From IMG/VR virus record IMGVR_UViG_2627853687_000001, positions 28,861 to 92,860 of that record: a DNA stretch of 64,000 nt. One strand, written 5' to 3'. Position 1 is the first letter of the stretch; the number at the start of each line of letters is the position of its first letter. A program made the translations under genes and the position numbers. The notes under the pieces were generated by a model. That model was not told the origin of the DNA. It ran no database searches and saw only the letters and a list, made by a program, of their open reading frames with translations. Source of the DNA: a virus. Lineage: Duplodnaviria; Caudoviricetes. Shown piece by piece: positions 3,229 to 14,480 of this stretch.

Positions 3229-4308
3229 ATGCCTAACTTCAGCGATGTAGAATTTGAGAAGCGTTATAAACATTTTCTACAGGTACAAAAAGAGTGGCTG
3301 ACTCTCATCACGGACAACCAGATTTTTAGCGATAGAAACTCCCTGGGTGAAGAATGCCGCCCGATTGGCTTTATCACTGACAAGAAAGCCTTTAAGCGTG
3401 CCGAGCACCTGCTGGCTGACTGGCAGAGCTTTGCAGACCTGGCAGAAGAAAAGCGCAAAGAGCGCTCTATCGCGATCACCACGAACCTCTATCTGCCGGT
3501 TCCTGTACTGATCACCAATCCAAAGCACGTCACTATTAACCGCTTCCGTGCAACGGCCACCGCGAACCACACCCGCGAAGATATCCTTAAGCGTTATGAG
3601 AAGCAGATAAACAAGCTGCGTAAAGTTCCTTTTGCTGCCGGTGCAATCATGTCGCTGGAAGATGAAATGAAAGGGATTGAAGCTGCAGCGCCAGGCGCAA
3701 TGTACCGCGCACGCACTAGCAACTATTCTGATATCCAAGTAACAGCGCGCTATACCGATGATAAGAAAGATGAAGGTGAATCTTTCCGCTATGGCGCACA
3801 TGGGATGCTGATTTACGGCGACAAGCTGGATAAAGAGCGCGATATCAAGCTGAACGTTACGAGTAACGGTAATTACACGTCGCCATACGATGCTATCTCA
3901 CCCGTACCATGTTCAATCCTGCCTAATGCCAAGCTGTACACCATGGAAGACGTGGAATATAGCAAGGTGCTGGCCGCGCAGCGTTCCTCAGTGGCGTACA
4001 CCGTAAACACACGCCGTGCTCAGTTTGAGAACAGGGCAAAGGCTAAGATTGCGAAGGCAAAAGACGCAGCGGAAGCGCGTCTGTTTAAAGCTGAAATCGA
4101 AGAAAACCGCGATTTGCTGGAGAAGCTGGAAGCCTACGACTGGGCGCTCCTGGATAAGAAGGTAGCCGCTGGTGATACAGAACAGTTGACGATGCCTGAA
4201 ATCCGTAAGCGTTACGGCGGAGAAGAGCCTCGCGCCGGAAAGAATATGCGTAACATGTACAGCCTGCTGCGTGAACTGGAAAGTAACCTGAAAAATCAGG
4301 ACAAATAA
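3229..4308 (+). CDS. c1: C1 primary repressor homolog
   Basis: Blocks RPIGFI, LYLPVPVL and SPYDAISPVPCSILPNAKLY.MEDVE resemble P1 C1. Convergent with pacB next to lox/cre as in P1. C-terminus is longer. Confidence 0.8.
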   Translation: MPNFSDVEFEKRYKHFLQVQKEWLTLITDNQIFSDRNSLGEECRPIGFITDKKAFKRAEHLLADWQSFADLAEEKRKERSIAITTNLYLPVPVLITNPKHVTINRFRATATANHTREDILKRYEKQINKLRKVPFAAGAIMSLEDEMKGIEAAAPGAMYRARTSNYSDIQVTARYTDDKKDEGESFRYGAHGMLIYGDKLDKERDIKLNVTSNGNYTSPYDAISPVPCSILPNAKLYTMEDVEYSKVLAAQRSSVAYTVNTRRAQFENRAKAKIAKAKDAAEARLFKAEIEENRDLLEKLEAYDWALLDKKVAAGDTEQLTMPEIRKRYGGEEPRAGKNMRNMYSLLRELESNLKNQDK

Positions 4309-9490: not shown

Positions 9491-9888
9491 GTACTGCTCC
9501 GCTTGAATTAACTACAAGCAATTCTAAGGATTGTATAATTCGAGCAAGTGCGAACGGCGTAAATATCGCCATTATTAGGAGGTATGAGCGGGTATTCAGG
9601 ACAAATCCGTGTGCAAAAAGTGTTTAGCTAAACTGGTTGGTGGCTTTATCCGGGAGAGAAGATTGTAGCGCTGGCAGTATCTGGCAGTGGTTGCGGCGGT
9701 GAATGTCAGTACCATTGATTAATATATCTTCTGGCCGGGCATGGGCGCGAATCCAGATGCTTTACTTAGAGTTTCAATCAAATCAGGCGGGCTGATAGTG
9801 CCGGATGAGGGTTTTCACCCGGCAGGAGCTGAATCAGGCAGTCAGTGGATGCTTTTCAGGCAGTGGCTTACCACACTGGACCATAAAG

Positions 9889-10239
9889 TTACCATGTCAC
9901 GTGCGAGCGTCTGAATAATGCCGTCGTAGTGCTGTTTTGGCGCAGCTTCCCCGTCGTCACCCACGAAAACCAGCCCCATAGCCGTACACCTTTGGTGATA
10001 TCCACGCTGTAAGCAAATCTGGGAGTTGATTCGAAGTGCGCCACCAGCTGTTCTGCACGCCATGCGAAGCACACGCCACAGATTTTGCTGAGCTCAAGCG
10101 TCACTGTGCCGCCAACGAGCATAGTTGAGGTTTCGGAACCTGCGCAGGAATTACTGTGTTTGCATGAGATTGACGTGATTTTGCAGTTATCAGCACGCCA
10201 GGCCAGCTGAGCCAGCCAGATAATTTTCTGCATTTCCAT
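9889..10239 (-). CDS. hypothetical protein (possibly frameshifted with 9842-10072)
   Basis: TAATG overlap with the upstream gene at 10239. Confidence 0.45.
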   Translation of the reverse strand: MEMQKIIWLAQLAWRADNCKITSISCKHSNSCAGSETSTMLVGGTVTLELSKICGVCFAWRAEQLVAHFESTPRFAYSVDITKGVRLWGWFSWVTTGKLRQNSTTTALFRRSHVTW

Positions 10240-10823
10240 TACACCAGCTTCCAGTCGTTTGCGAGAATATCGGTAGAAGCCGGCGCCCAGTCAGAGACGG
10301 TCAGCTGTTCTGCATCAATGAGTAGCAGCTGGGGCATCTGCGTGACAGTAGCCTCCGGGTTGCAGTCAAAGTAACGAGCCGGTACGCCGTACATGTCTGT
10401 CCCGTTCAGTGTGGCGCGCATCATGCCTCTGCTGAGGCGCAGATATACACCCTTCCCCCACGCTGCCCGCGCTACCTTGCAGCCCTCTGACAGCCATAAC
10501 TGCGCCACGGCCAACGGTGCGTGCTCCTGCCTGAAATTCAGTTCGCCGGTATTAATCATCGCTTCGTTGCGCAAGATCAGATCGTTGAGCTTAATCAGCG
10601 CAACACAGGCGGCGTGGTTCAGTGTTTCGCCATGACCGGTCATTGTCAGGCCGCTTTTACTAATAATGGCTGCATAACCGTCATTTTTGGTCTCAGACGT
10701 ATCTGTAATGGTATATCCGAGGCGTTCAATCACGGCCAGGAGTGCCATGTAGTCGCCTGCATAGTCGGCTTCTGCATCTGCAATCATGCCGATGGTTGCG
10801 TTTAACTGTTGAGCGGTCATCAT
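10239..10823 (-). CDS. DUF2829/Tad2-like domain protein with N-terminal extension
   Basis: C-terminal GCKVARAAWGKGVYL...WAPASTDILANDWKLV matches the DUF2829 signature. Confidence 0.8.
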   Translation of the reverse strand: MMTAQQLNATIGMIADAEADYAGDYMALLAVIERLGYTITDTSETKNDGYAAIISKSGLTMTGHGETLNHAACVALIKLNDLILRNEAMINTGELNFRQEHAPLAVAQLWLSEGCKVARAAWGKGVYLRLSRGMMRATLNGTDMYGVPARYFDCNPEATVTQMPQLLLIDAEQLTVSDWAPASTDILANDWKLV

Positions 10824-10825
10824 TA

Positions 10826-11113
10826 TCAGTAGTCTCGTTTCTGTTTGCGCTTCTGCGCTGCCTGTCTTTGTTTCTTCACGCCTGCATTGTTTGTGGCCAA
10901 ACGACGTATTCCCTGTTCGATCTCTTCCTGCACGGTTGGCCGGGTCTCCTCCACCACCAGCGTTCTGACCTGCGGGACGGGAAAGGTTGGCGGACGACGG
11001 GCAATCCAGCTGAGGCTTCCCATAATTGCCCCCATCAGTGCGATCTTCTTCATGCGTTTTCTCTTCCTGCAGGCGTGCAGAATCCCCGGCAGGCGCCGGT
11101 GATTAAATTTCAC
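10826..11113 (-). CDS. small basic hypothetical protein
   Basis: ORF ends 2 bp before the next start; the true start may be MKKIAL at 11053. Confidence 0.55.
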   Translation of the reverse strand: MKFNHRRLPGILHACRKRKRMKKIALMGAIMGSLSWIARRPPTFPVPQVRTLVVEETRPTVQEEIEQGIRRLATNNAGVKKQRQAAQKRKQKRDY

Positions 11114-11187
11114 CTGGTTAAATCCGGCGTGGGATACGCGCGGCGGTAATCTGATGCCTGTACCGGCGCATGGCCGGGTGGCTGTAA

Positions 11188-11293
11188 TGGCATTGTGCTG
11201 TCCGGATTCGAACCGGCTACCGTCCGTTTGTCCCCATCAGGCCTAACGGCTATTACATGGAACGGCGGTTGCTTCCGTTAAGCGACAACACAA
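11188..11293 (-). ncRNA. tRNA-like RNA with expanded anticodon arm
   Basis: Acceptor TGTGTTG/CAGCACA, D arm GCTT-AACGG-AAGC, T arm CCGG-TTCGAAT-CCGG, ~55-nt arm at the anticodon position, 3' ATGCCA. Confidence 0.65.
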
Positions 11294-11335
11294 CGGTAAA
11301 AGCACATTGCAGGCGCTCTTACCTGTTGTCCTGTA

Positions 11336-11458
11336 TCAGCCCGCCACCAGCTGCGCGATAAGCCACTTATGACCGGCAAACAGTCCGGCATTAAGCAGGC
11401 AGTGAAACATGACAAACTGCATGGCTCTGATGATCTTTGTGTAGGTGCTGTCACTCAT
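11336..11458 (-). CDS. 40-aa small hydrophobic peptide
   Basis: MSDSTYTKIIRAMQFVMFHCLLNAGLFAGHKWLIAQLVAG, weak SD (GGA/GAG), lies between RNA modules. Confidence 0.45.
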   Translation of the reverse strand: MSDSTYTKIIRAMQFVMFHCLLNAGLFAGHKWLIAQLVAG

Positions 11459-11525
11459 GCGCTCTGCGTCCGGATAAACTGACTGTCTGACACTGATAAT
11501 GCCTGACATATCAGGTATAGCGTTA

Positions 11526-11665
11526 GTGGTGGCCGGTGCCATATCCGGCAAGTAACCCCTCAAGTGACTGGTCAACCTGGTTACTGGCGGCTTTAACCCC
11601 TGTGTACGCGACTGAAGAAGCGGGGGCCAGTCTTGCGATCGCAGCAGCAACTGCGAATGCACCAC
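11526..11665 (-). ncRNA. cloverleaf-like structured RNA module
   Basis: GTGGTG/CACCAC closing stem, TCGCAG-TTGCTG-CTGCGA arm, GCCGG-ATATGGCA-CCGGC arm abutting the closing stem. Confidence 0.5.
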
Positions 11666-11742
11666 AACGGATAGAGCACTGACCATTCCTAGTCCAATGG
11701 CGCTCTGCGCAAAGCATCAATGCTCTTTCCTGTTAGTGTGCC

Positions 11743-11871
11743 TTATTTGCGGCGCTGCTTCTTCCTGCCGCCGCTTACCGCCTTGATGAATGTCTCGATG
11801 GCATAGATGGCCACCAGCGCATAAATCACGGTGAGAAACGGGTGCTCTGCAGCAAACTCTGATAACGACAT
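11743..11871 (-). CDS. 42-aa single-TM peptide with basic tail
   Basis: MSLSEFAAEHPFLTVIYALVAIYAIETFIKAVSGGRKKQRRK with AGGA SD; below the ORF-track cutoff. Confidence 0.6.
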   Translation of the reverse strand: MSLSEFAAEHPFLTVIYALVAIYAIETFIKAVSGGRKKQRRK

Positions 11872-11930
11872 ATCGCGTCCTGTCGTGGGAAATGAGGTTG
11901 TTGTGATCGTTTTCCGTTAGCGCGATTGTT

Positions 11931-12042
11931 CCATGAGGCGGGACTTAAACCCGCTTTGCTTTCGCAGCCCATCGCTGACCGCCTGTGTTGATTCACAGAC
12001 AAGGCTTTCGCCCCGTGGATTCCAGATCCACAACTCCTACGG
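11931..12042 (-). ncRNA. cloverleaf-like structured RNA module with GNRA loops
   Basis: GTGGA-TCTGGAA-TCCAC, GGGC-GAAA-GCCT, TGC-GAAA-GCA and T-arm-like GCGGG-TTTAAGT-CCCGC, enclosed by a GTTGTGGTGATCG/CGATCACAACAAC stem. Confidence 0.55.
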
Positions 12043-12245
12043 TGTGTGAAAGCGATCACCACAACGGTCGAGAACACTGAGCAACCACGCGCCAGTTGTT
12101 ATTTCAGTCACCTGCCAGTGTCCTCGCCGTTATGGGCTGGACTTTCCCAGCAGTCACGGCGTGTTGAGGTCTGCCGATACCCTGCCCCGCCACCAGCCAA
12201 ATTAGCCAGTAAACAGGGCATCGCCTGGTGTTGACGTGTAATGCA

Positions 12246-12360
12246 TGGGGGGCTGGTGCCACCAGCTGTCCGATACGGAATCTACGGACGGGTCATGTAA
12301 AGGAATTTGCAAAGCGTCAGGTAACTGTTCCGTCCCACGTGCGCACAGCCGCATTCCCCC
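12246..12360 (-). ncRNA. cloverleaf-like structured RNA module
   Basis: GGGGG/CCCCC(CA) closing stem, TGCG-GCTGTG-CGCA, GGACGG/CCGTCC long arm, GCTGG-TGGCA-CCAGC arm. Confidence 0.5.
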
Positions 12361-12437
12361 ATTTGTGAGCGCGCTGACAGAGGTAATCTTTCGCCAAACG
12401 CCAGTAAAACGACAGAAGCATCAGCGCGCTCACAAAT
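12361..12437. repeat. perfect 17-bp inverted repeat
   Basis: ATTTGTGAGCGCGCTGA (12361-12377) / TCAGCGCGCTCACAAAT (12421-12437). Confidence 0.95.
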
Positions 12438-12611
12438 AGTGATCCCTTACGAGGATCAGGCGGGAACATGTTTAAGCCTCATGGGGCGTTCTATGCGCGG
12501 GATTAGTCCATCAACCGCGTTCACTGCCATGACAGGAGGGGCTACTTGCCGTTCACCCTACTCATAACACACCCGGAAAAAGCTAATAACCGGGTGCGGC
12601 CCGTTACGAAC

Positions 12612-12675
12612 TGGTGCAGGTTGGCGGAATTGAACCGCCGACAATGGAACACTCTACCGACTGAGCTAAACCTGC
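12612..12675 (-). tRNA. 64-nt tRNA-like gene lacking the anticodon stem (pseudo-tRNA or decoy)
   Basis: GCAGGTT TA GCTC AGTCGGTA GAGT G TTCCATTGTC GGCGG TTCAATT CCGCC AACCTGC A CCA: intact acceptor, D and T arms plus encoded CCA, with only 10 nt where ~22 are expected. Confidence 0.8.
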
Positions 12676-13024
12676 TGAATAATTGCCGGTGCATACCCGG
12701 CGCGGACACTTAGGTATCTGGTCAACCTGCCCGCTTGCGGTAACAAATAGGTGTGGAGGCACCTGCCAGATTTGCATTGCGTTTGCCTCGCTGCCGAAGC
12801 GTTTCCCCGTTTCAGCCGTCAGCACACCTTGATGCGCTCACGGCTGAGCCTGGAAAAAAGGCCCGGAAACTACCGGGCATAAAATCCTACACACACAGCA
12901 AAGCCTACTCTGGAATAGACTTTGATTTGTGAAAAAATGCGGATTAAACAGACAGTTATGCCTAACCCGCCAAATGCCTATCATGATTTTGTATAGAGCC
13001 GAGATGCCCTTGTCAGCGGGGAGA

Positions 13025-13082
13025 AATGTACACAAAATGGAGTTATGAAGCAATGAAAATCTAAGAGTTTTCTTAGATTTTC
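13025..13082 (-). promoter_or_regulatory. sigma70 promoter with palindromic double operator
   Basis: TTGCTT-17-TACATT on the minus strand, immediately downstream of GAAAATCTAAGA-GTTT-TCTTAGATTTTC (13055-13082). Confidence 0.7.
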
Positions 13083-13110
13083 AAAGCAAAAGAAGGGAGG
13101 TATGTGAGAG

Positions 13111-14400
13111 TTAGCGGCGCTTTACTTTCGGGTTTGTAATGTTCTCAATATCGCCGTTGGCTTTCGCCCATTTTATACACCAGCTGTTCACGGCAGCGCG
13201 GATCTCCATCACAGAAGCCTCGCTTAACCCCTTCACTTTCGCCAGCTCAGCAGGGAGCTCGCCACCAGCATCGGCAACCGTCTCATATCCGGCCTTAGTC
13301 AGTGCGTTAAGGGCGCGTGTCGGTATGACCAGCTCGGAGACCGGCGAGGCTTTGCCGTCCAGAATGCGCTGGTGGAGACGTGGGAAATCCTGCGCTATGC
13401 GCTTCATGATGCGTGCGTGGAGCTCGTCGTTAACAGCGGTATCCCACATCGGCTCAAGTTCAGGCAGCAGACGGAATACCGGATTGCCCCATATACCTGG
13501 CACTACATCCATTGCAAGCATCATCGCGGTGCGGATCTGGAAATGGAAATCAGCCATTTCAATAGAGACGTCGCGGATGCCGTGGAAGACGCTCAGACCA
13601 AAGTGGAAGTTGTAGATGTAGCAGCCCACGTCACCGGAGCCGTCCGGCAGCTGAAGCAGGAACTGCTGCACGTCTTCCCGGCCATCGTGGAAATCGACAC
13701 GCTCTTTCAGGTGGTTATATAGCGCGGTTGTCTTAAGCAGGTCGTTAGCCGTCTCTGCGCGCAGGCGACGCTCATCGCCTACAACCTTATCCGCAATGTT
13801 CAGTTTGCTCTGTAAGTCCTGGCGTTTAACGCTTTCCTTTTTGCGGTCAGCGCGCATCTGCGAAATGGTTTTGTCCCGCTCGTTCAGGTCAGTTGCCAGG
13901 CGTTCAGGGTGCTTACGGCGGTACTGCGTGTGCTCCTGATTCAGCGTGGCCAGCGCCAGCTGCGCGGTCGTCAGGGCGGACTCCATATTCTGTAGCTTCG
14001 TTTCCGCTCTGATTGCCCGGTTCTCTGCTTCCAGCACGCTTTCTTTTGCCGCGTCTCTGGCTTCTTCAATGGCGTTCTGCGCATCGAGACGGATTTTCGT
14101 TATTTCGTTGTGGAGTGCGGACTGCGCGGCCAGCTGCTGCTGTACCTGCTCCAGCGCCTCGAACATCAGATTGTAGGTATCCGCTTCATAATTGAGGCGC
14201 AAACCGATATCGATCTGGATCTGCTCCAGCGCGTTAGTGCAGTTATCAAGAAGGCGCAGCTCCAGGTCATCGAGCGTCAGGCGTTTACGGACGGAATTAA
14301 GCTGGCCGTAGGCGGTGACAAAGGCCTGGTGAAGTACATCGTCATCAACGTTGCATTCAGGGAGATTTTGCAGCTGCTGGAGTGGAGCGAGAGTTGTCAT
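13111..14400 (-). CDS. PmgS-like coiled-coil protein with C-terminal RNAP alpha-CTD-like HhH domain
   Basis: Long heptad region; C-terminal VSELVIPTRALNALTKAGYETVAD...LAKVKGLSEASVMEI; size and position like P1 pmgS. Confidence 0.7.
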   Translation of the reverse strand: MTTLAPLQQLQNLPECNVDDDVLHQAFVTAYGQLNSVRKRLTLDDLELRLLDNCTNALEQIQIDIGLRLNYEADTYNLMFEALEQVQQQLAAQSALHNEITKIRLDAQNAIEEARDAAKESVLEAENRAIRAETKLQNMESALTTAQLALATLNQEHTQYRRKHPERLATDLNERDKTISQMRADRKKESVKRQDLQSKLNIADKVVGDERRLRAETANDLLKTTALYNHLKERVDFHDGREDVQQFLLQLPDGSGDVGCYIYNFHFGLSVFHGIRDVSIEMADFHFQIRTAMMLAMDVVPGIWGNPVFRLLPELEPMWDTAVNDELHARIMKRIAQDFPRLHQRILDGKASPVSELVIPTRALNALTKAGYETVADAGGELPAELAKVKGLSEASVMEIRAAVNSWCIKWAKANGDIENITNPKVKRR

Positions 14401-14434: not shown

Positions 14435-14480
14435 ATGATAACTCGAAATTAACCACTGTCTAAGACTTTTCTTAGATTTC
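14435..14480 (-). promoter_or_regulatory. promoter with double operator upstream of the pmgS-like gene
   Basis: TCTAAGA-CTTT-TCTTAGA palindrome overlapping TAGACA-16-TATCAT. Confidence 0.6.

What the first reader, a model, noticed from the sequence alone, without database searches (positions are those of the whole stretch)
11150..13082. Repressor-controlled array of tRNA-like RNAs, each preceded by a long stem
Seen: ~1.9 kb with only two tiny ORFs, downstream of a TTGCTT-17-TACATT promoter and a palindromic operator. On the minus strand a module repeats four times. A long imperfect duplex (12361-12437; ~12058-12135; ~11660-11740; ~11286-11329) is directly followed by, and partly overlaps, a cloverleaf in which a T-arm-like hairpin abuts the closing stem (12246-12360; 11931-12042; 11526-11665; 11188-11293). 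A fifth, arm-less tRNA lies at 12612-12675. None has a normal anticodon arm. Inference: this is a lytic-phase polycistronic RNA processed by RNase III and RNase P into a family of tRNA mimics. Such mimics could be decoys for tRNA-targeting defence toxins or anticodon nucleases, or scaffolds displaying variable loops. It is co-transcribed with a Tad2-like gene, which fits an anti-defence operon. I know of no description of such an array in P1-like phages.
Basis: partly seen in the sequence, partly recalled or inferred. Interest (0 to 1): 0.9.

Follow-up and report, generated by a model that had tools for sequence, protein, structure and literature searches.

The report
Phage early-operon leader: structured RNA array
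This gene-poor stretch of a Pantoea P1-like phage-plasmid is a conserved string of folded RNAs, including tRNA look-alikes that cannot read codons, and it is the local version of a known kind of phage operon leader that host enzymes probably cut into pieces.

Summary
On the minus strand, 13083-11190 carries a conserved promoter beside a palindromic operator. It also carries two terminators, five (not four) hairpin-plus-body modules, a CCA-ending tRNA without an anticodon arm, a ~135-nt conserved element and two real peptide genes (42 and 40 aa).

The modules are not one family.
- Only the arm-less RNA (Rfam tRNA, 49 bits) and module 4 (24.5 bits here, 45.9 bits in a relative) are tRNA-like.
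- Module 1 is homologous to the dicF-dicB spacer of E. coli Qin and to sub-threshold STnc100-like elements.
- Modules 0 and 3 share a core with P1's annotated "dicF-like region" and with the domain in front of DicF.

The long hairpins resemble the hairpin where RNase III makes the 190-nt DicF precursor. The locus parallels the P1 ban-operon leader: C1 operator, dicF-like region, tRNAs, tciABC. ORF42 resembles TciC.

Compensatory changes support modules 0, 1, 2 and 4 and the arm-less tRNA. Module 3 is invariant.

My reading is an early polycistronic RNA cut by RNase III and probably RNase P. A decoy role is untested, and I obtained no expression data.

This scan has reported related arrays on other DNA. 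I class this as a new variant of a known kind.

The parts
13054..13083 (-). Palindromic operator-like site TCTAAGA-N4-TCTTAGA, directly upstream of the -35
   Evidence: 13+13 nt perfect inverted repeat (I10). The same motif stands upstream of the 429-aa gene at about 14455-14480. Copies with 1-2 mismatches flank the C1-like gene and lie upstream of lpa. It resembles the divalent P1 operator Op72ab. The genome encodes a distant C1 homologue. Binding was not tested.
13025..13053 (-). Sigma-70-type promoter TTGCTT-17-TACATT
   Evidence: Read from the sequence. The hexamers are conserved in 8 of 8 aligned relatives while the flanks vary. It was not listed by the consensus scan.
12853..13020 (-). 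Leader with two intrinsic terminators (stems 12970-12939 and 12878-12861); likely one or two short terminated RNAs
   Evidence: Terminator scan. Both hairpins and their T-runs are kept in relatives, with altered stem sequence in L003 and L018.
12802..12857 (-). Hairpin H0
   Evidence: Inverted repeat I2. Fold z -4.96. 2 of 14 pairs carry compensatory changes (helix 1).
12685..12810 (-).
   Evidence: Shares a core (CAGGTTGACCA ... YTRAGKG, 33 invariant columns in 5 sequences) with module 3, the P1 'dicF-like region' and the K-12 domain in front of DicF. An internal hairpin has 4 of 5 pairs with compensatory changes (helix 5).
12612..12675 (-). CCA-ending tRNA-like RNA without an anticodon arm (allele A)
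   Evidence: Rfam tRNA 49 bits against a gathering score of 29, with 3 nt in place of 15. ARAGORN finds none. Two alleles occur, 6 of 12 loci each. 3 of 7 acceptor pairs and 1 of 5 T-stem pairs are compensatory.
12440..12600 (-). Small hairpin plus conserved element c (core 12580-12440)
   Evidence: 98-100% identical in most relatives. The core pattern occurs in 46 viral contigs, including 40-48 kb prophage-sized contigs, and in 6 species genomes. nhmmer gives 31 of 70 hits outside the Pantoea-type group. One covarying pair was counted, and a covarying 3' hairpin was seen by eye. No Rfam match.
12361..12437 (-). Hairpin H1
   Evidence: 17-bp perfect arms (I3). Fold z -6.74.
12246..12360 (-). 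Body M1: relative of the Qin dicF-dicB spacer and STnc100-like element
   Evidence: Alignment A13 with K-12 Qin, P1, L034 and L029 has 33 invariant columns. 6 of 16 tested pairs are compensatory and 99.1% of cells are paired, against 80.1% in shuffles. The Rfam STnc100 model itself gives no hit.
12058..12135 (-). Hairpin H2 (CCAUAACGG...CCGUUGUGG)
   Evidence: Fold z -5.17. 2 of 20 main-stem pairs and 4 more pairs in its side stems are compensatory. It resembles the K-12 hairpin that holds the mapped RNase III cut.
11897..12065 (-). Body M2: ~170-nt multi-helix RNA closed by an 18-bp stem, with two GAAA loops and a T-arm-like hairpin GCGGG-UUUAAGU-CCCGC
   Evidence: Inverted repeat I4 and fold. 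Nearly invariant in 12 relatives, with one internal hairpin showing 2 compensatory pairs. Its 20-nt core pattern occurs in 17 viral contigs, and nhmmer found no hit outside the Pantoea-type group.
11743..11871 (-). ORF42, a small membrane peptide resembling P1 TciC
   Evidence: Intact in 18 of 18 loci. Variable sites by codon position are 14/9/26. 31% identity to P1 TciC over 32 aa, pairwise E 2e-6.
11662..11739 (-). Hairpin H3
   Evidence: Fold z -2.77. It is replaced by other sequence in L003, L016, L018 and L021.
11526..11672 (-). Body M3: second 'dicF-like leader domain'
   Evidence: Shares its core with M0, the P1 dicF-like region and the K-12 pre-DicF domain. It is almost invariant in 12 loci, so there are no compensatory changes to count: 0 of 52 pairs.
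11336..11458 (-). ORF40, a small hydrophobic peptide of unknown family
   Evidence: Found in 17 of 17 loci with a match. Variable sites by codon position are 8/5/24. No Pfam or NCBIfam hit.
11290..11329 (-). Hairpin H4
   Evidence: Fold z -4.97. Listed as terminator-like but without a T-run.
11193..11292 (-). Body M4: tRNA-like RNA with acceptor, D and T arms and a ~55-nt branched arm in place of the anticodon arm
   Evidence: Rfam tRNA 24.5 bits here and 45.9 bits for the orthologue in L003. 5 pairs of the long arm carry compensatory changes, and 95.3% of cells are paired across 15 sequences.

Best explanation
The interval is the largely untranslated, highly folded leader of a repressor-controlled early operon of a Pantoea P1-like phage-plasmid. 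It is the counterpart of the P1 ban-operon leader (C1 operator Op72ab, 'dicF-like region', tRNA genes, tciABC). It also parallels the dicBF-type early-left leaders of lambdoid prophages.

Proposed sequence of events:
- Transcription runs leftward from a conserved promoter next to a divalent operator for the element's C1-like repressor (inferred).
- Two terminators can end it early as short RNAs (inferred).
- Read-through RNA carries five hairpin-plus-body modules, an anticodon-arm-less CCA-ending tRNA-like RNA, a conserved ~135-nt element and two small peptide genes.
- RNase III cuts the long hairpins (inferred from likeness to the mapped K-12 site).
- RNase P and the 3'-end enzymes trim the tRNA-like pieces (inferred).

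The products would be stable folded RNAs and short mRNAs with protected ends. The tRNA-like pieces keep what processing enzymes recognise (acceptor stem, T arm, D arm) and have lost or replaced the decoding arm. They therefore act as processing or stability cassettes, or have an unknown non-decoding job, and are not adaptors in translation.

Shown: conservation, homologies, folds and compensatory changes. Not shown: transcription, cleavage, or any trans-acting function.
For: Synteny and homology:
- The same array sits between the same genes in 6 to 10 plasmid records and 19 viral contigs.
- Enterobacter, Leclercia and E. coli P1-like plasmids carry element c plus tRNA genes at the same place.
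- The P1 record shows Op72ab, a dicF-like region, tRNA-Asn and tRNA-Thr, tciABC, tRNA-Ile and ban.
- ORF42 resembles TciC. TerB and DUF3927 genes, which I take as tciA/tciB-like (the P1 record calls TciA TerB-like; the DUF3927 match to TciB rests on size and position only), are inserted in relatives exactly at the end of module 2.
- M0 and M3 share a core with the P1 dicF-like region and the K-12 pre-DicF domain.
- M1 shares both ends with the K-12 dicF-dicB spacer, a P1 element and sub-threshold STnc100 hits.

RNase III:
- The 190-nt DicF species needs RNase III (passages of 10.1101/2023.04.14.536235).
- Counting 190 nt back from the DicF 3' end lands in the 3' strand of a K-12 hairpin that begins CCAUAACG and ends CCGGUUGUGG, like H2.

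Structure:
- The five hairpins fold with z from -2.8 to -6.7.
- Cells with compensatory changes against shuffles: 11 vs 3.8 (A3), 41 vs 17.4 (A8), 18 vs 3.8 (A6) and 20 vs 8.4 (A13). In each case 0 of 500 shuffles reached the observed value.

Selection:
- In L014 the modules are 90-95% identical while the spacers and promoter region are 73-86%.

Repressor:
- A C1 homologue is present (E 1.8e-10).
- The operator motif recurs at the neighbouring promoter and near the C1-like gene and lpa.
Against: - There are no expression or cleavage data. The two RNA-library runs that hold the stretch carry it inside a 98-kb contig, so DNA carry-over cannot be excluded, and two raw-read runs had no reads.
- Module 3 is invariant and gives no structural test. 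Its fold is no better than shuffles (z -0.68).
- The element c region also folds no better than shuffles (z -0.35).
- The structures tested were partly derived from the same alignments, which inflates the contrast with slid controls.
- The relatives are few (12-15 distinct) and related, so shuffle controls overstate significance.
- The promoter is weak by consensus and was not listed by the scan.
- The operator lies upstream of the -35 rather than over the promoter.
- Two terminators stand between the promoter and the array, so how RNA polymerase reaches the modules is unexplained.
- The near-total sequence conservation of M2, M3 and element c suggests a function beyond being cut.
- The RNase III site position in K-12 is my arithmetic from a gel-estimated length.
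Confidence: 0.6

Rival explanations
1. tRNA-mimic decoys. The processed tRNA-like RNAs soak up or inhibit host enzymes or defence toxins that act on tRNAs, such as anticodon nucleases or enzymes acting on the acceptor end, and so protect the phage.
For: - Two unrelated alleles of the arm-less RNA, one with a type-I D arm and one with a Leu-like type-II D arm, both keep the acceptor stem, T arm and CCA but lack a decoding arm. This looks like selection for a non-decoding tRNA shape.
- The alleles do not follow the relatedness of the loci: L003 has A and its close relative L018 has B.
- A Tad2-like gene lies downstream.
Against: - No tool result bears on binding or protection.
- Without an anticodon loop the RNAs lack the target site of anticodon nucleases.
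- Only 2 to 3 of the 7 structured elements are tRNA-like.
- The same features are explained by selection for processing signals alone.
- One literature search gave no described case of such decoys.
Confidence: 0.12
2. DNA-level role. The conserved junctions (CCGTTGTGKTG and the module ends) are mainly recombination linkers that let accessory cassettes be swapped, and the RNA folds are secondary.
For: - Breakpoints between relatives fall at module ends: 11896/11886, 11718/11681 and 11527/11506.
- L008 joins hairpin H2 directly to body M4 through the shared motif.
- The motif occurs three times in the window (D2).
- The arm-less tRNA alleles are swapped between conserved flanks.
- Different genes sit in the array in different relatives: TerB plus DUF3927, or a serine protease or SPFH protein.
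Against: Compensatory changes keep RNA helices, which DNA linkers do not need. Recombination at conserved sequence is an expected by-product of any repeated conserved RNA.
Confidence: 0.1
3. Regulatory leader. Element c, possibly with the hairpins, modifies RNA polymerase or Rho/Nus factors so that transcription passes the terminators. This would be a put-like processive antitermination device, and the rest is passenger RNA.
For: - In E. coli prophage L072, element c lies about 140 nt downstream of a strong promoter next to the repressor gene and upstream of two terminators.
- The core is nearly invariant across genera.
- Terminators are present in the window's leader.
Against: - There is no sequence likeness to HK022 putL or putR beyond one 10-nt word, by eye only.
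- In the window, element c lies downstream of both terminators, not before them.
- K-12 Qin has the hairpin and body modules but gave no element c match.
Confidence: 0.1
4. Decaying tRNA gene cluster. The tRNA-like pieces are pseudogenes left from a P1-type tRNA cluster and have no function.
For: Relatives have ordinary tRNA genes in the same locus: tRNA-Met in L024 and L025, tRNA-Ile in L073 (PGAP label; ARAGORN reads it as Met, anticodon CAT), and Asn, Thr and Ile in P1. Allele B looks like a shortened copy of their 86-nt tRNA-like gene.
Against: Acceptor and T stems are kept by compensatory changes and CCA is retained. The long arm of M4 is kept by 5 compensatory pairs. The modules are more conserved than the spacers.
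Confidence: 0.08

Closest known systems
Leader of the phage P1 ban operon (GenBank AF234172: Op72ab, 'dicF-like region', tRNA-Asn, tRNA-Thr, tciA/B/C, tRNA-Ile, ban)
   Same: - A palindromic two-half-site operator sits at the promoter.
- A long gene-poor leader follows.
- There is a dicF-like domain (shared core) and an STnc100-like element (at 33.4 bits).
- Hairpins of the CACAAC...GTTG type are present.
- tRNA(-like) genes are present.
- There is a TciC-like peptide, and relatives have TerB- and DUF3927-type genes that I take as tciA/tciB-like.
   Different: - P1 has three ordinary tRNAs at 65-75 bits. The window has none that could decode.
- The operon here ends in a 95-aa ORF and a Tad2-like gene rather than ban.
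- The genomic position differs: next to lpa and pacA-type genes.
- The window has two copies of the dicF-like domain, the large M2 RNA and element c. I did not test whether P1 has element c.
dicBF operon leader of E. coli K-12 prophage Qin (DicF, Rfam RF00039; 190-nt RNase III-dependent precursor)
   Same: - The promoter is repressor-controlled.
- A long hairpin ending in GGUUGUGG is followed by a closed multi-helix domain with the CAGGUUGACCA...UUAAGUG core.
- An M1-type element follows, before the next gene.
- RNase III and RNase E processing into small RNA is documented there (passages).
   Different: No DicF-like sRNA was found in the window: no RF00039 hit at E<=10. The window has tRNA-like pieces, M2 and element c, which the Qin stretch lacks.
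STnc100 (Rfam RF02076) and the related PasD prophage sRNAs
   Same: M1 shares the closing stem, the GAAUGCGGCU..GCGCACG hairpin and the terminal GGCACC hairpin with loci that score 33-42 bits on RF02076. The location is a prophage or phage leader.
   Different: The window sequence does not reach E<=10 with the Rfam model, and its middle part is different. The function of STnc100 is itself unknown, on passages of PMC12370729 and of the preprint 10.64898/2026.05.13.724894.
tRNA-like RNase P substrates that are not tRNAs: P1/P7 C4 antisense RNA precursor, and MALAT1 mascRNA
   Same: An acceptor/T-arm-like shape is used as a processing signal for a non-decoding RNA. C4 is present in this same genome (27845-27932, 84 bits).
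   Different: No sequence relation to C4. Cleavage was not tested. The references were seen only as a review passage and a reference list.

Membership tests
tRNA (Rfam RF00005) | Covariance-model score at or above the gathering score (29 bits) | tested here: met
   12675-12615 scores 49 bits. Module 4 scores 24.5 bits in the window, below the cut-off, but its orthologue in L003 scores 45.9 bits.
tRNA (functional adaptor) | Anticodon stem-loop with a 7-nt loop presenting an anticodon | tested here: not met
   In the arm-less RNA, 3 nt stand where 15 belong, and ARAGORN finds nothing even at a lowered threshold. In M4 a branched arm of about 55 nt replaces it. The 4-bp stem that ARAGORN draws for allele B is not kept among relatives.
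STnc100 (RF02076) | Match to the Rfam model | tested here: not met
   No hit at E<=10 in 2.3 kb or in 951 nt. Relatedness rests on alignment A13 to loci with sub-threshold hits.
DicF (RF00039) | Match to the Rfam model | tested here: not met
   No hit at E<=10 in the window stretch. L034 has a 28.3-bit sub-threshold hit.
'dicF-like region' / pre-DicF leader domain (informal; a P1 record feature, in no RNA library) | Closed multi-helix domain with the conserved core ...AAG.NTGGC...CAGGTTGACCA-N5-YTRAG.G... | tested here: met
   M0 and M3 align with P1 68791-68892 and its flanks, the K-12 region 5' of dicF, and L025. There are 33 invariant columns in 5 sequences. nhmmer links M3 and M0 to L025, L054 and L058.
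RNase III processing hairpins of phage polycistronic RNAs | Cleavage by RNase III within a duplex of about 20 bp or more | not testable with these tools
   Duplex lengths of 11-20+ bp and likeness of H2 to the K-12 hairpin are shown. Cleavage is documented only for K-12.
P1 C1-controlled operator | Bound by the C1 repressor; a 17-bp asymmetric site, paired in inverted orientation in divalent operators | tested here: inconclusive
   The palindrome resembles Op72ab in layout (TCTAAGA-N4-TCTTAGA against TCTAATA-N4-TATTAGT). The 13-nt motif gives 21 matches at up to 3 mismatches against 11.7 +/- 3.4 expected, and 2 of 100 shuffles reach that number. The C1 homologue is only 22% identical.
HK022 put antiterminator RNA | Two-stem-loop RNA just downstream of pL or pR with the put sequence | tested here: not met
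   putL and putR were read from the HK022 record. No likeness to element c beyond one 10-nt word, compared by eye only.
RprA (RF00034) | Match to the Rfam model | tested here: not met
   No hit in the window at E<=10. Only a shared word UUGCUGUGUGU before terminator T2. L072 has a 46.8-bit hit against a gathering score of 70.

The most novel reading that the evidence does not exclude
The CCA-ending tRNA shapes without a decoding arm are the point of the locus. They come in two interchangeable alleles derived from different tRNA types, plus the long-armed M4.

On this reading they are processed like tRNAs and perhaps even charged. Allele B and its 86-nt relatives have a Leu-like D arm and A73. 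Leucyl-tRNA synthetase does not need the anticodon arm: shown for Aquifex in PMC2377443, and for E. coli I only recall it. They would then act as sponges, inhibitors or amino-acid donors for a host or defence enzyme that reads the tRNA elbow or acceptor end. That would be a phage counter-defence made of RNA.
Probability: 0.12. Interest if true: 0.85.

Novelty: new variant of a known kind. Interest (0 to 1): 0.5.

Why it matters
Temperate phages of enterobacteria carry long gene-free leaders behind their repressor-controlled early promoters. Only one product of such leaders, DicF, has been studied in depth.

This locus shows that the same building blocks are shared between P1-like phage-plasmids and lambdoid prophages and are shuffled as cassettes:
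- RNase III-type hairpins
- the pre-DicF domain
- STnc100-like elements
- tRNA-like pieces
- a widespread ~135-nt element

Apart from STnc100 and DicF themselves, these building blocks matched no Rfam family in my searches, so genome annotation leaves the stretches blank.

The arm-less, CCA-ending tRNA with two alleles is a clean natural test case. It asks what a tRNA shape is kept for when decoding is lost: processing signal, stability element or decoy. If the pieces have trans-acting roles, they would be a new layer of phage control over the host.

Tried and rejected
- Small toxin ORF idea. A 50-aa hydrophobic ORF (12469-12317) looked Hok-like to me. Its start codon is ACG or AAG in L002, L021, L003 and L018 and it has no Pfam hit, so I rejected it.
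- Integron attC idea. By eye the hairpin ends do not fit the R-box consensus as I recall it, and I made no search for an integrase. Dropped without a formal test.
- Rfam. No family matched modules 0-3 or element c at E<=10.
- Phage collection. No match to the 2-kb stretch in 'near' or 'distant' mode, and none to the L032 copy of element c.
- Antisense targets in the phage's own genome. 13-nt perfect complements numbered 12, against a mean of 5.35 and a maximum of 16 in 20 shuffles. The longest was 14 nt. This is not above chance, and host targets were not searched.
- Expression. Runs X1 and X4 (RNA libraries) hold the stretch only inside a 98-kb contig of a relative, and raw-read runs X21 and X22 had no reads on it. 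This gives no information on transcription or ends.
- Full-length parent of allele A. The 3'-half pattern occurs only in 7 contigs of the same group.
- GGAAAGWCC motif. It occurs once in the window, which is chance level. It is frequent in some lambdoid loci, where it looks like a ribosome-binding context. Dropped.
- RprA likeness of the leader. Not supported by the model.
- put likeness of element c. Not supported.
- Papers. They may hold processing-site maps for dicBF and STnc100/PasD alignments that bear on the homology claims. The P1 genome paper and Larkin et al. 2002 were not held. What I say of them is recalled or taken from the GenBank record and from reference lists.

Full report
WHAT THE WINDOW IS. 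The window is part of a 92.9-kb viral record rated complete. Its closest relatives are about 90-kb non-mobilizable plasmids of Pantoea, 81-95% identical over this stretch. It has a P1-type C4 antisense RNA, a late promoter activator gene and a distant C1 repressor homologue. It is therefore a P1-like phage-plasmid. The finding lies on the minus strand. Upstream is a 429-aa gene with an RNA polymerase alpha-CTD-like domain (13111-14400). Downstream are a 95-aa ORF and a gene with a Tad2-like domain (10239-10823; Pfam PF11195, E 4.7e-11).

CHECK OF THE OBSERVATION.
- The four long duplexes fold far better than shuffles, with z of -6.74, -5.17, -2.77 and -4.97.
- Each is followed by a multi-helix body closed by a stem.
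- Rfam calls 12675-12615 a tRNA (49 bits) in which 3 nt replace the 15-nt anticodon arm, and CCA is encoded after it.
- It calls 11292-11193 a tRNA below threshold (24.5 bits) with a 39-nt insert.
- ARAGORN finds no tRNA in 64 kb.
- The promoter hexamers are kept in 8 of 8 aligned relatives although the generic scan does not list them.
- The palindrome is perfect over 13+13 nt.

There is a fifth module: hairpin 12857-12802 and a body to about 12685. There are two intrinsic terminators early in the transcript. There is a ~135-nt element at 12580-12440, which is the best conserved piece of the whole stretch (98-100% identity in most relatives). The two tiny ORFs are true genes. They are intact in 18 of 18 and 17 of 17 loci that have a match, and their variable sites are concentrated at third codon positions (14/9/26 and 8/5/24). 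A third candidate ORF of 50 aa is not conserved.

THE ELEMENTS ARE CONSERVED AND FOLDED. In L014 the neighbouring protein is 84% identical. There the modules are 90-95% identical at the DNA level, while the spacers and promoter region are 73-86%.

Compensatory changes support these parts:
- the acceptor and T stems of the arm-less tRNA (3 of 7 and 1 of 5 pairs);
- a hairpin in module 0 (4 of 5 pairs);
- the long arm of module 4 (5 pairs);
- the hairpin and one inner helix of module 2 (8 pairs in all);
- the closing stem and terminal hairpin of module 1 when compared across phage groups (6 of 16 pairs).

In each of these four tests no shuffle out of 500 reached the observed number of compensated cells. 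These controls overstate significance for related sequences, and some of the structures came from the same alignments. Module 3 is almost invariant, so it gives no test (0 of 52 pairs), and by energy it is unremarkable (z -0.68).

THE MODULES ARE NOT ONE FAMILY. Only the arm-less RNA and module 4 are tRNA-like by a covariance model. The orthologue of module 4 in plasmid pPSP-26e passes the Rfam threshold at 45.9 bits.

Module 1 aligns at both ends with four other elements: the folded element between dicF and dicB in E. coli K-12 prophage Qin, an element between upl and tciA in P1, and two prophage loci that score 37-42 bits on STnc100, whose gathering score is 47. The Rfam STnc100 model does not reach E<=10 on the window.

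Modules 0 and 3 share a core, including CAGGTTGACCA and a downstream YTRAGKG, with three regions. These are the P1 feature annotated 'dicF-like region', the K-12 domain immediately 5' of DicF, and an Enterobacter phage-plasmid.

Module 2 is a ~170-nt RNA with an 18-bp closing stem, two GAAA loops and a T-arm-like hairpin. I found it only in the Pantoea-type group.

THE HAIRPINS AND RNASE III. Three of the hairpins end in CCGTTGTGKTG, and this word is also the 5' strand of the next closing stem (D2). The same layout occurs in a lambdoid prophage contig, L034. There element c is followed by a long hairpin ending CCGUUGUG, a 127-nt tRNA-like RNA (39.3 bits), a DicF-like stretch and an STnc100-like element.

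In K-12, a hairpin that starts CCAUAACG and ends CCGGUUGUGG precedes the pre-DicF domain. The 190-nt DicF species requires RNase III and its 5' end is an RNase III cut. I read passages of preprint 10.1101/2023.04.14.536235 for this; it cites Faubladier 1990. Counting 190 nt back from the annotated DicF 3' end puts that cut in the 3' strand of this hairpin. That count is my arithmetic. This is the basis for reading the window's hairpins as RNase III sites. It is an inference from likeness, not a result on this RNA.

THE LOCUS TYPE IS KNOWN. The P1 record shows, in order:
- a divalent C1 operator (Op72ab) overlapping the ban promoters;
- the dicF-like region ending in a terminator;
- hairpins of the same kind;
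- tRNA-Asn and tRNA-Thr;
- tciA (TerB-like), tciB and tciC;
- tRNA-Ile;
- ban.

ORF42 resembles TciC (31% over 32 aa, pairwise E 2e-6). Several relatives carry TerB and DUF3927 genes inserted exactly at the 3' end of module 2. The window's palindrome has the layout of Op72ab with a different half-site. It recurs in front of the neighbouring gene, and with 1-2 mismatches beside the C1-like gene and upstream of lpa. Enterobacter, Leclercia and E. coli P1-like plasmids have element c and tRNA genes at the same position. The stretch is therefore the Pantoea lineage's version of a C1-controlled early leader.

THE TRNA-LIKE PIECES. The arm-less RNA has two alleles between identical flanks, each in 6 of 12 loci. 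The alleles do not follow the relatedness of the loci.
- Allele A (the window) has an ordinary type-I D arm.
- Allele B is a shortened form of an 86-nt tRNA-like gene of the Enterobacter, Leclercia and E. coli plasmids. That gene has a Leu-like type-II D arm, a poor anticodon stem and no variable-arm helix. PGAP calls it Arg and ARAGORN calls it Val(AAC).
- An 84-nt 'suppressor' (anticodon TTA) sits at the module-2 boundary in L003, L018, L041 and L065. In L003 it has a mismatched anticodon stem.

This locus therefore collects tRNA shapes whose acceptor, T and D parts are kept while the decoding part is lost, replaced or degenerate. The simplest reading is that selection acts on what processing enzymes recognise. 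P1's own C4 RNA precursor is an RNase P substrate (cited in PMC4919922). A non-decoding trans function cannot be excluded.

WHAT REMAINS UNEXPLAINED.
- Two terminators stand between the promoter and the array.
- Element c, M2 and M3 are conserved at nearly every base, more than a cutting site needs.
- Element c occurs in 46 viral contigs and 6 species genomes: Pantoea, Enterobacter, Citrobacter and Pectobacterium. In an E. coli prophage it lies just after the early-left promoter next to the repressor gene.
- I found no likeness between element c and HK022 put RNAs and no Rfam match.
- No antisense target stands out in the phage genome.
- No usable expression data were found.

COMPARISON WITH EARLIER NOTES OF THIS SCAN. 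After reaching the dicBF link myself, I found that follow-ups on other genomes had described the same things: the hairpin family as RNase III-type punctuation, STnc100-like elements with long stems, and a leader domain in front of DicF and in the P1 ban leader. One of these notes gave me the lead to the P1 'dicF-like region' feature, which I then checked. Sibling Pantoea-type genomes have first-reader notes on the same array. The finding is thus a further instance, with unusually clear tRNA-like members.

VERDICT. The feature is real and conserved. It is a new variant of a known kind of phage leader. The processing model is well motivated but unproven. The decoy idea is not excluded and not supported.

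Noticed in passing
window 12440-12600 (-): Element c is a ~135-nt nearly invariant RNA-like element (core ...CCUGUCAYGGCAGUGAACGCGGU...CCCGCG.A.AGAA.GCCCCRUGAGGCUUAAA plus a covarying 3' hairpin). It occurs in 46 viral contigs and 6 species genomes of Enterobacterales and is in no Rfam family. In an E. coli prophage it sits about 140 nt downstream of the early-left promoter.
   Followed up: partly
window 12853-13020 (-): The leader starts with two conserved intrinsic terminators, so one or two short RNAs of about 85 and 165 nt may be made. The second carries UUUGCUGUGUGUGUAGG, a word shared with the 3' half of RprA, but there is no RprA model hit.
   Followed up: partly
L072 6304-6392 (E. coli prophage); also L032, L050 and L069 just after element c: A close look-alike of the 3' half of the host sRNA RprA (46.8 bits, gathering score 70), including its terminator, lies in the early-left leader of lambdoid prophages. 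It may be a phage copy of a host sRNA seed.
   Followed up: no
L008 8289-8449: A natural chimera: hairpin H2 is joined directly to tRNA-like body M4 through the shared CCGTTGTGKTG word, deleting modules 2 and 3 and both peptide genes. Hairpins and bodies are therefore interchangeable units.
   Followed up: partly
L003 4984-5067, L018 8512-8595, L041 2765-2848, L065 1334-1417: An 84-nt tRNA with anticodon TTA (ochre-suppressor-like, Rfam 50.2 bits) is inserted exactly at the 3' boundary of module 2 in some relatives. In L003 its anticodon stem has a mismatch and its long variable region has no helix.
   Followed up: partly
L024 2126-2211, L073 4925-5010, L070 2626-2708: An 86-nt tRNA-like gene of Enterobacter, Leclercia and E. 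coli P1-like plasmids has a Leu-like D arm and A73-CCA but a poor anticodon stem. Annotators disagree on it (Arg or Val). It is the longer relative of arm-less allele B.
   Followed up: partly
window 14455-14480 (-), 2660-2672, 4094-4106, 9761-9773: The operator-like motif AAATCTAAGAAAA recurs upstream of the 429-aa gene as a second palindrome. With 1-2 mismatches it also recurs on both sides of the C1-like gene (window 3256-3981) and upstream of lpa, as C1 operators do in P1.
   Followed up: partly
window 11336-11458 (-): ORF40 is a conserved 40-aa hydrophobic peptide (…FHCLLNAGLFAGHKWLIAQLVAG) with no family match, lying between modules 3 and 4.
   Followed up: partly
window 10826-11113 (-): The 95-aa ORF probably starts at an internal ATG (MKKIALMG...), giving a signal-peptide-like N-terminus. 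Its C-terminal half is variable and lysine/arginine-rich in relatives.
   Followed up: no
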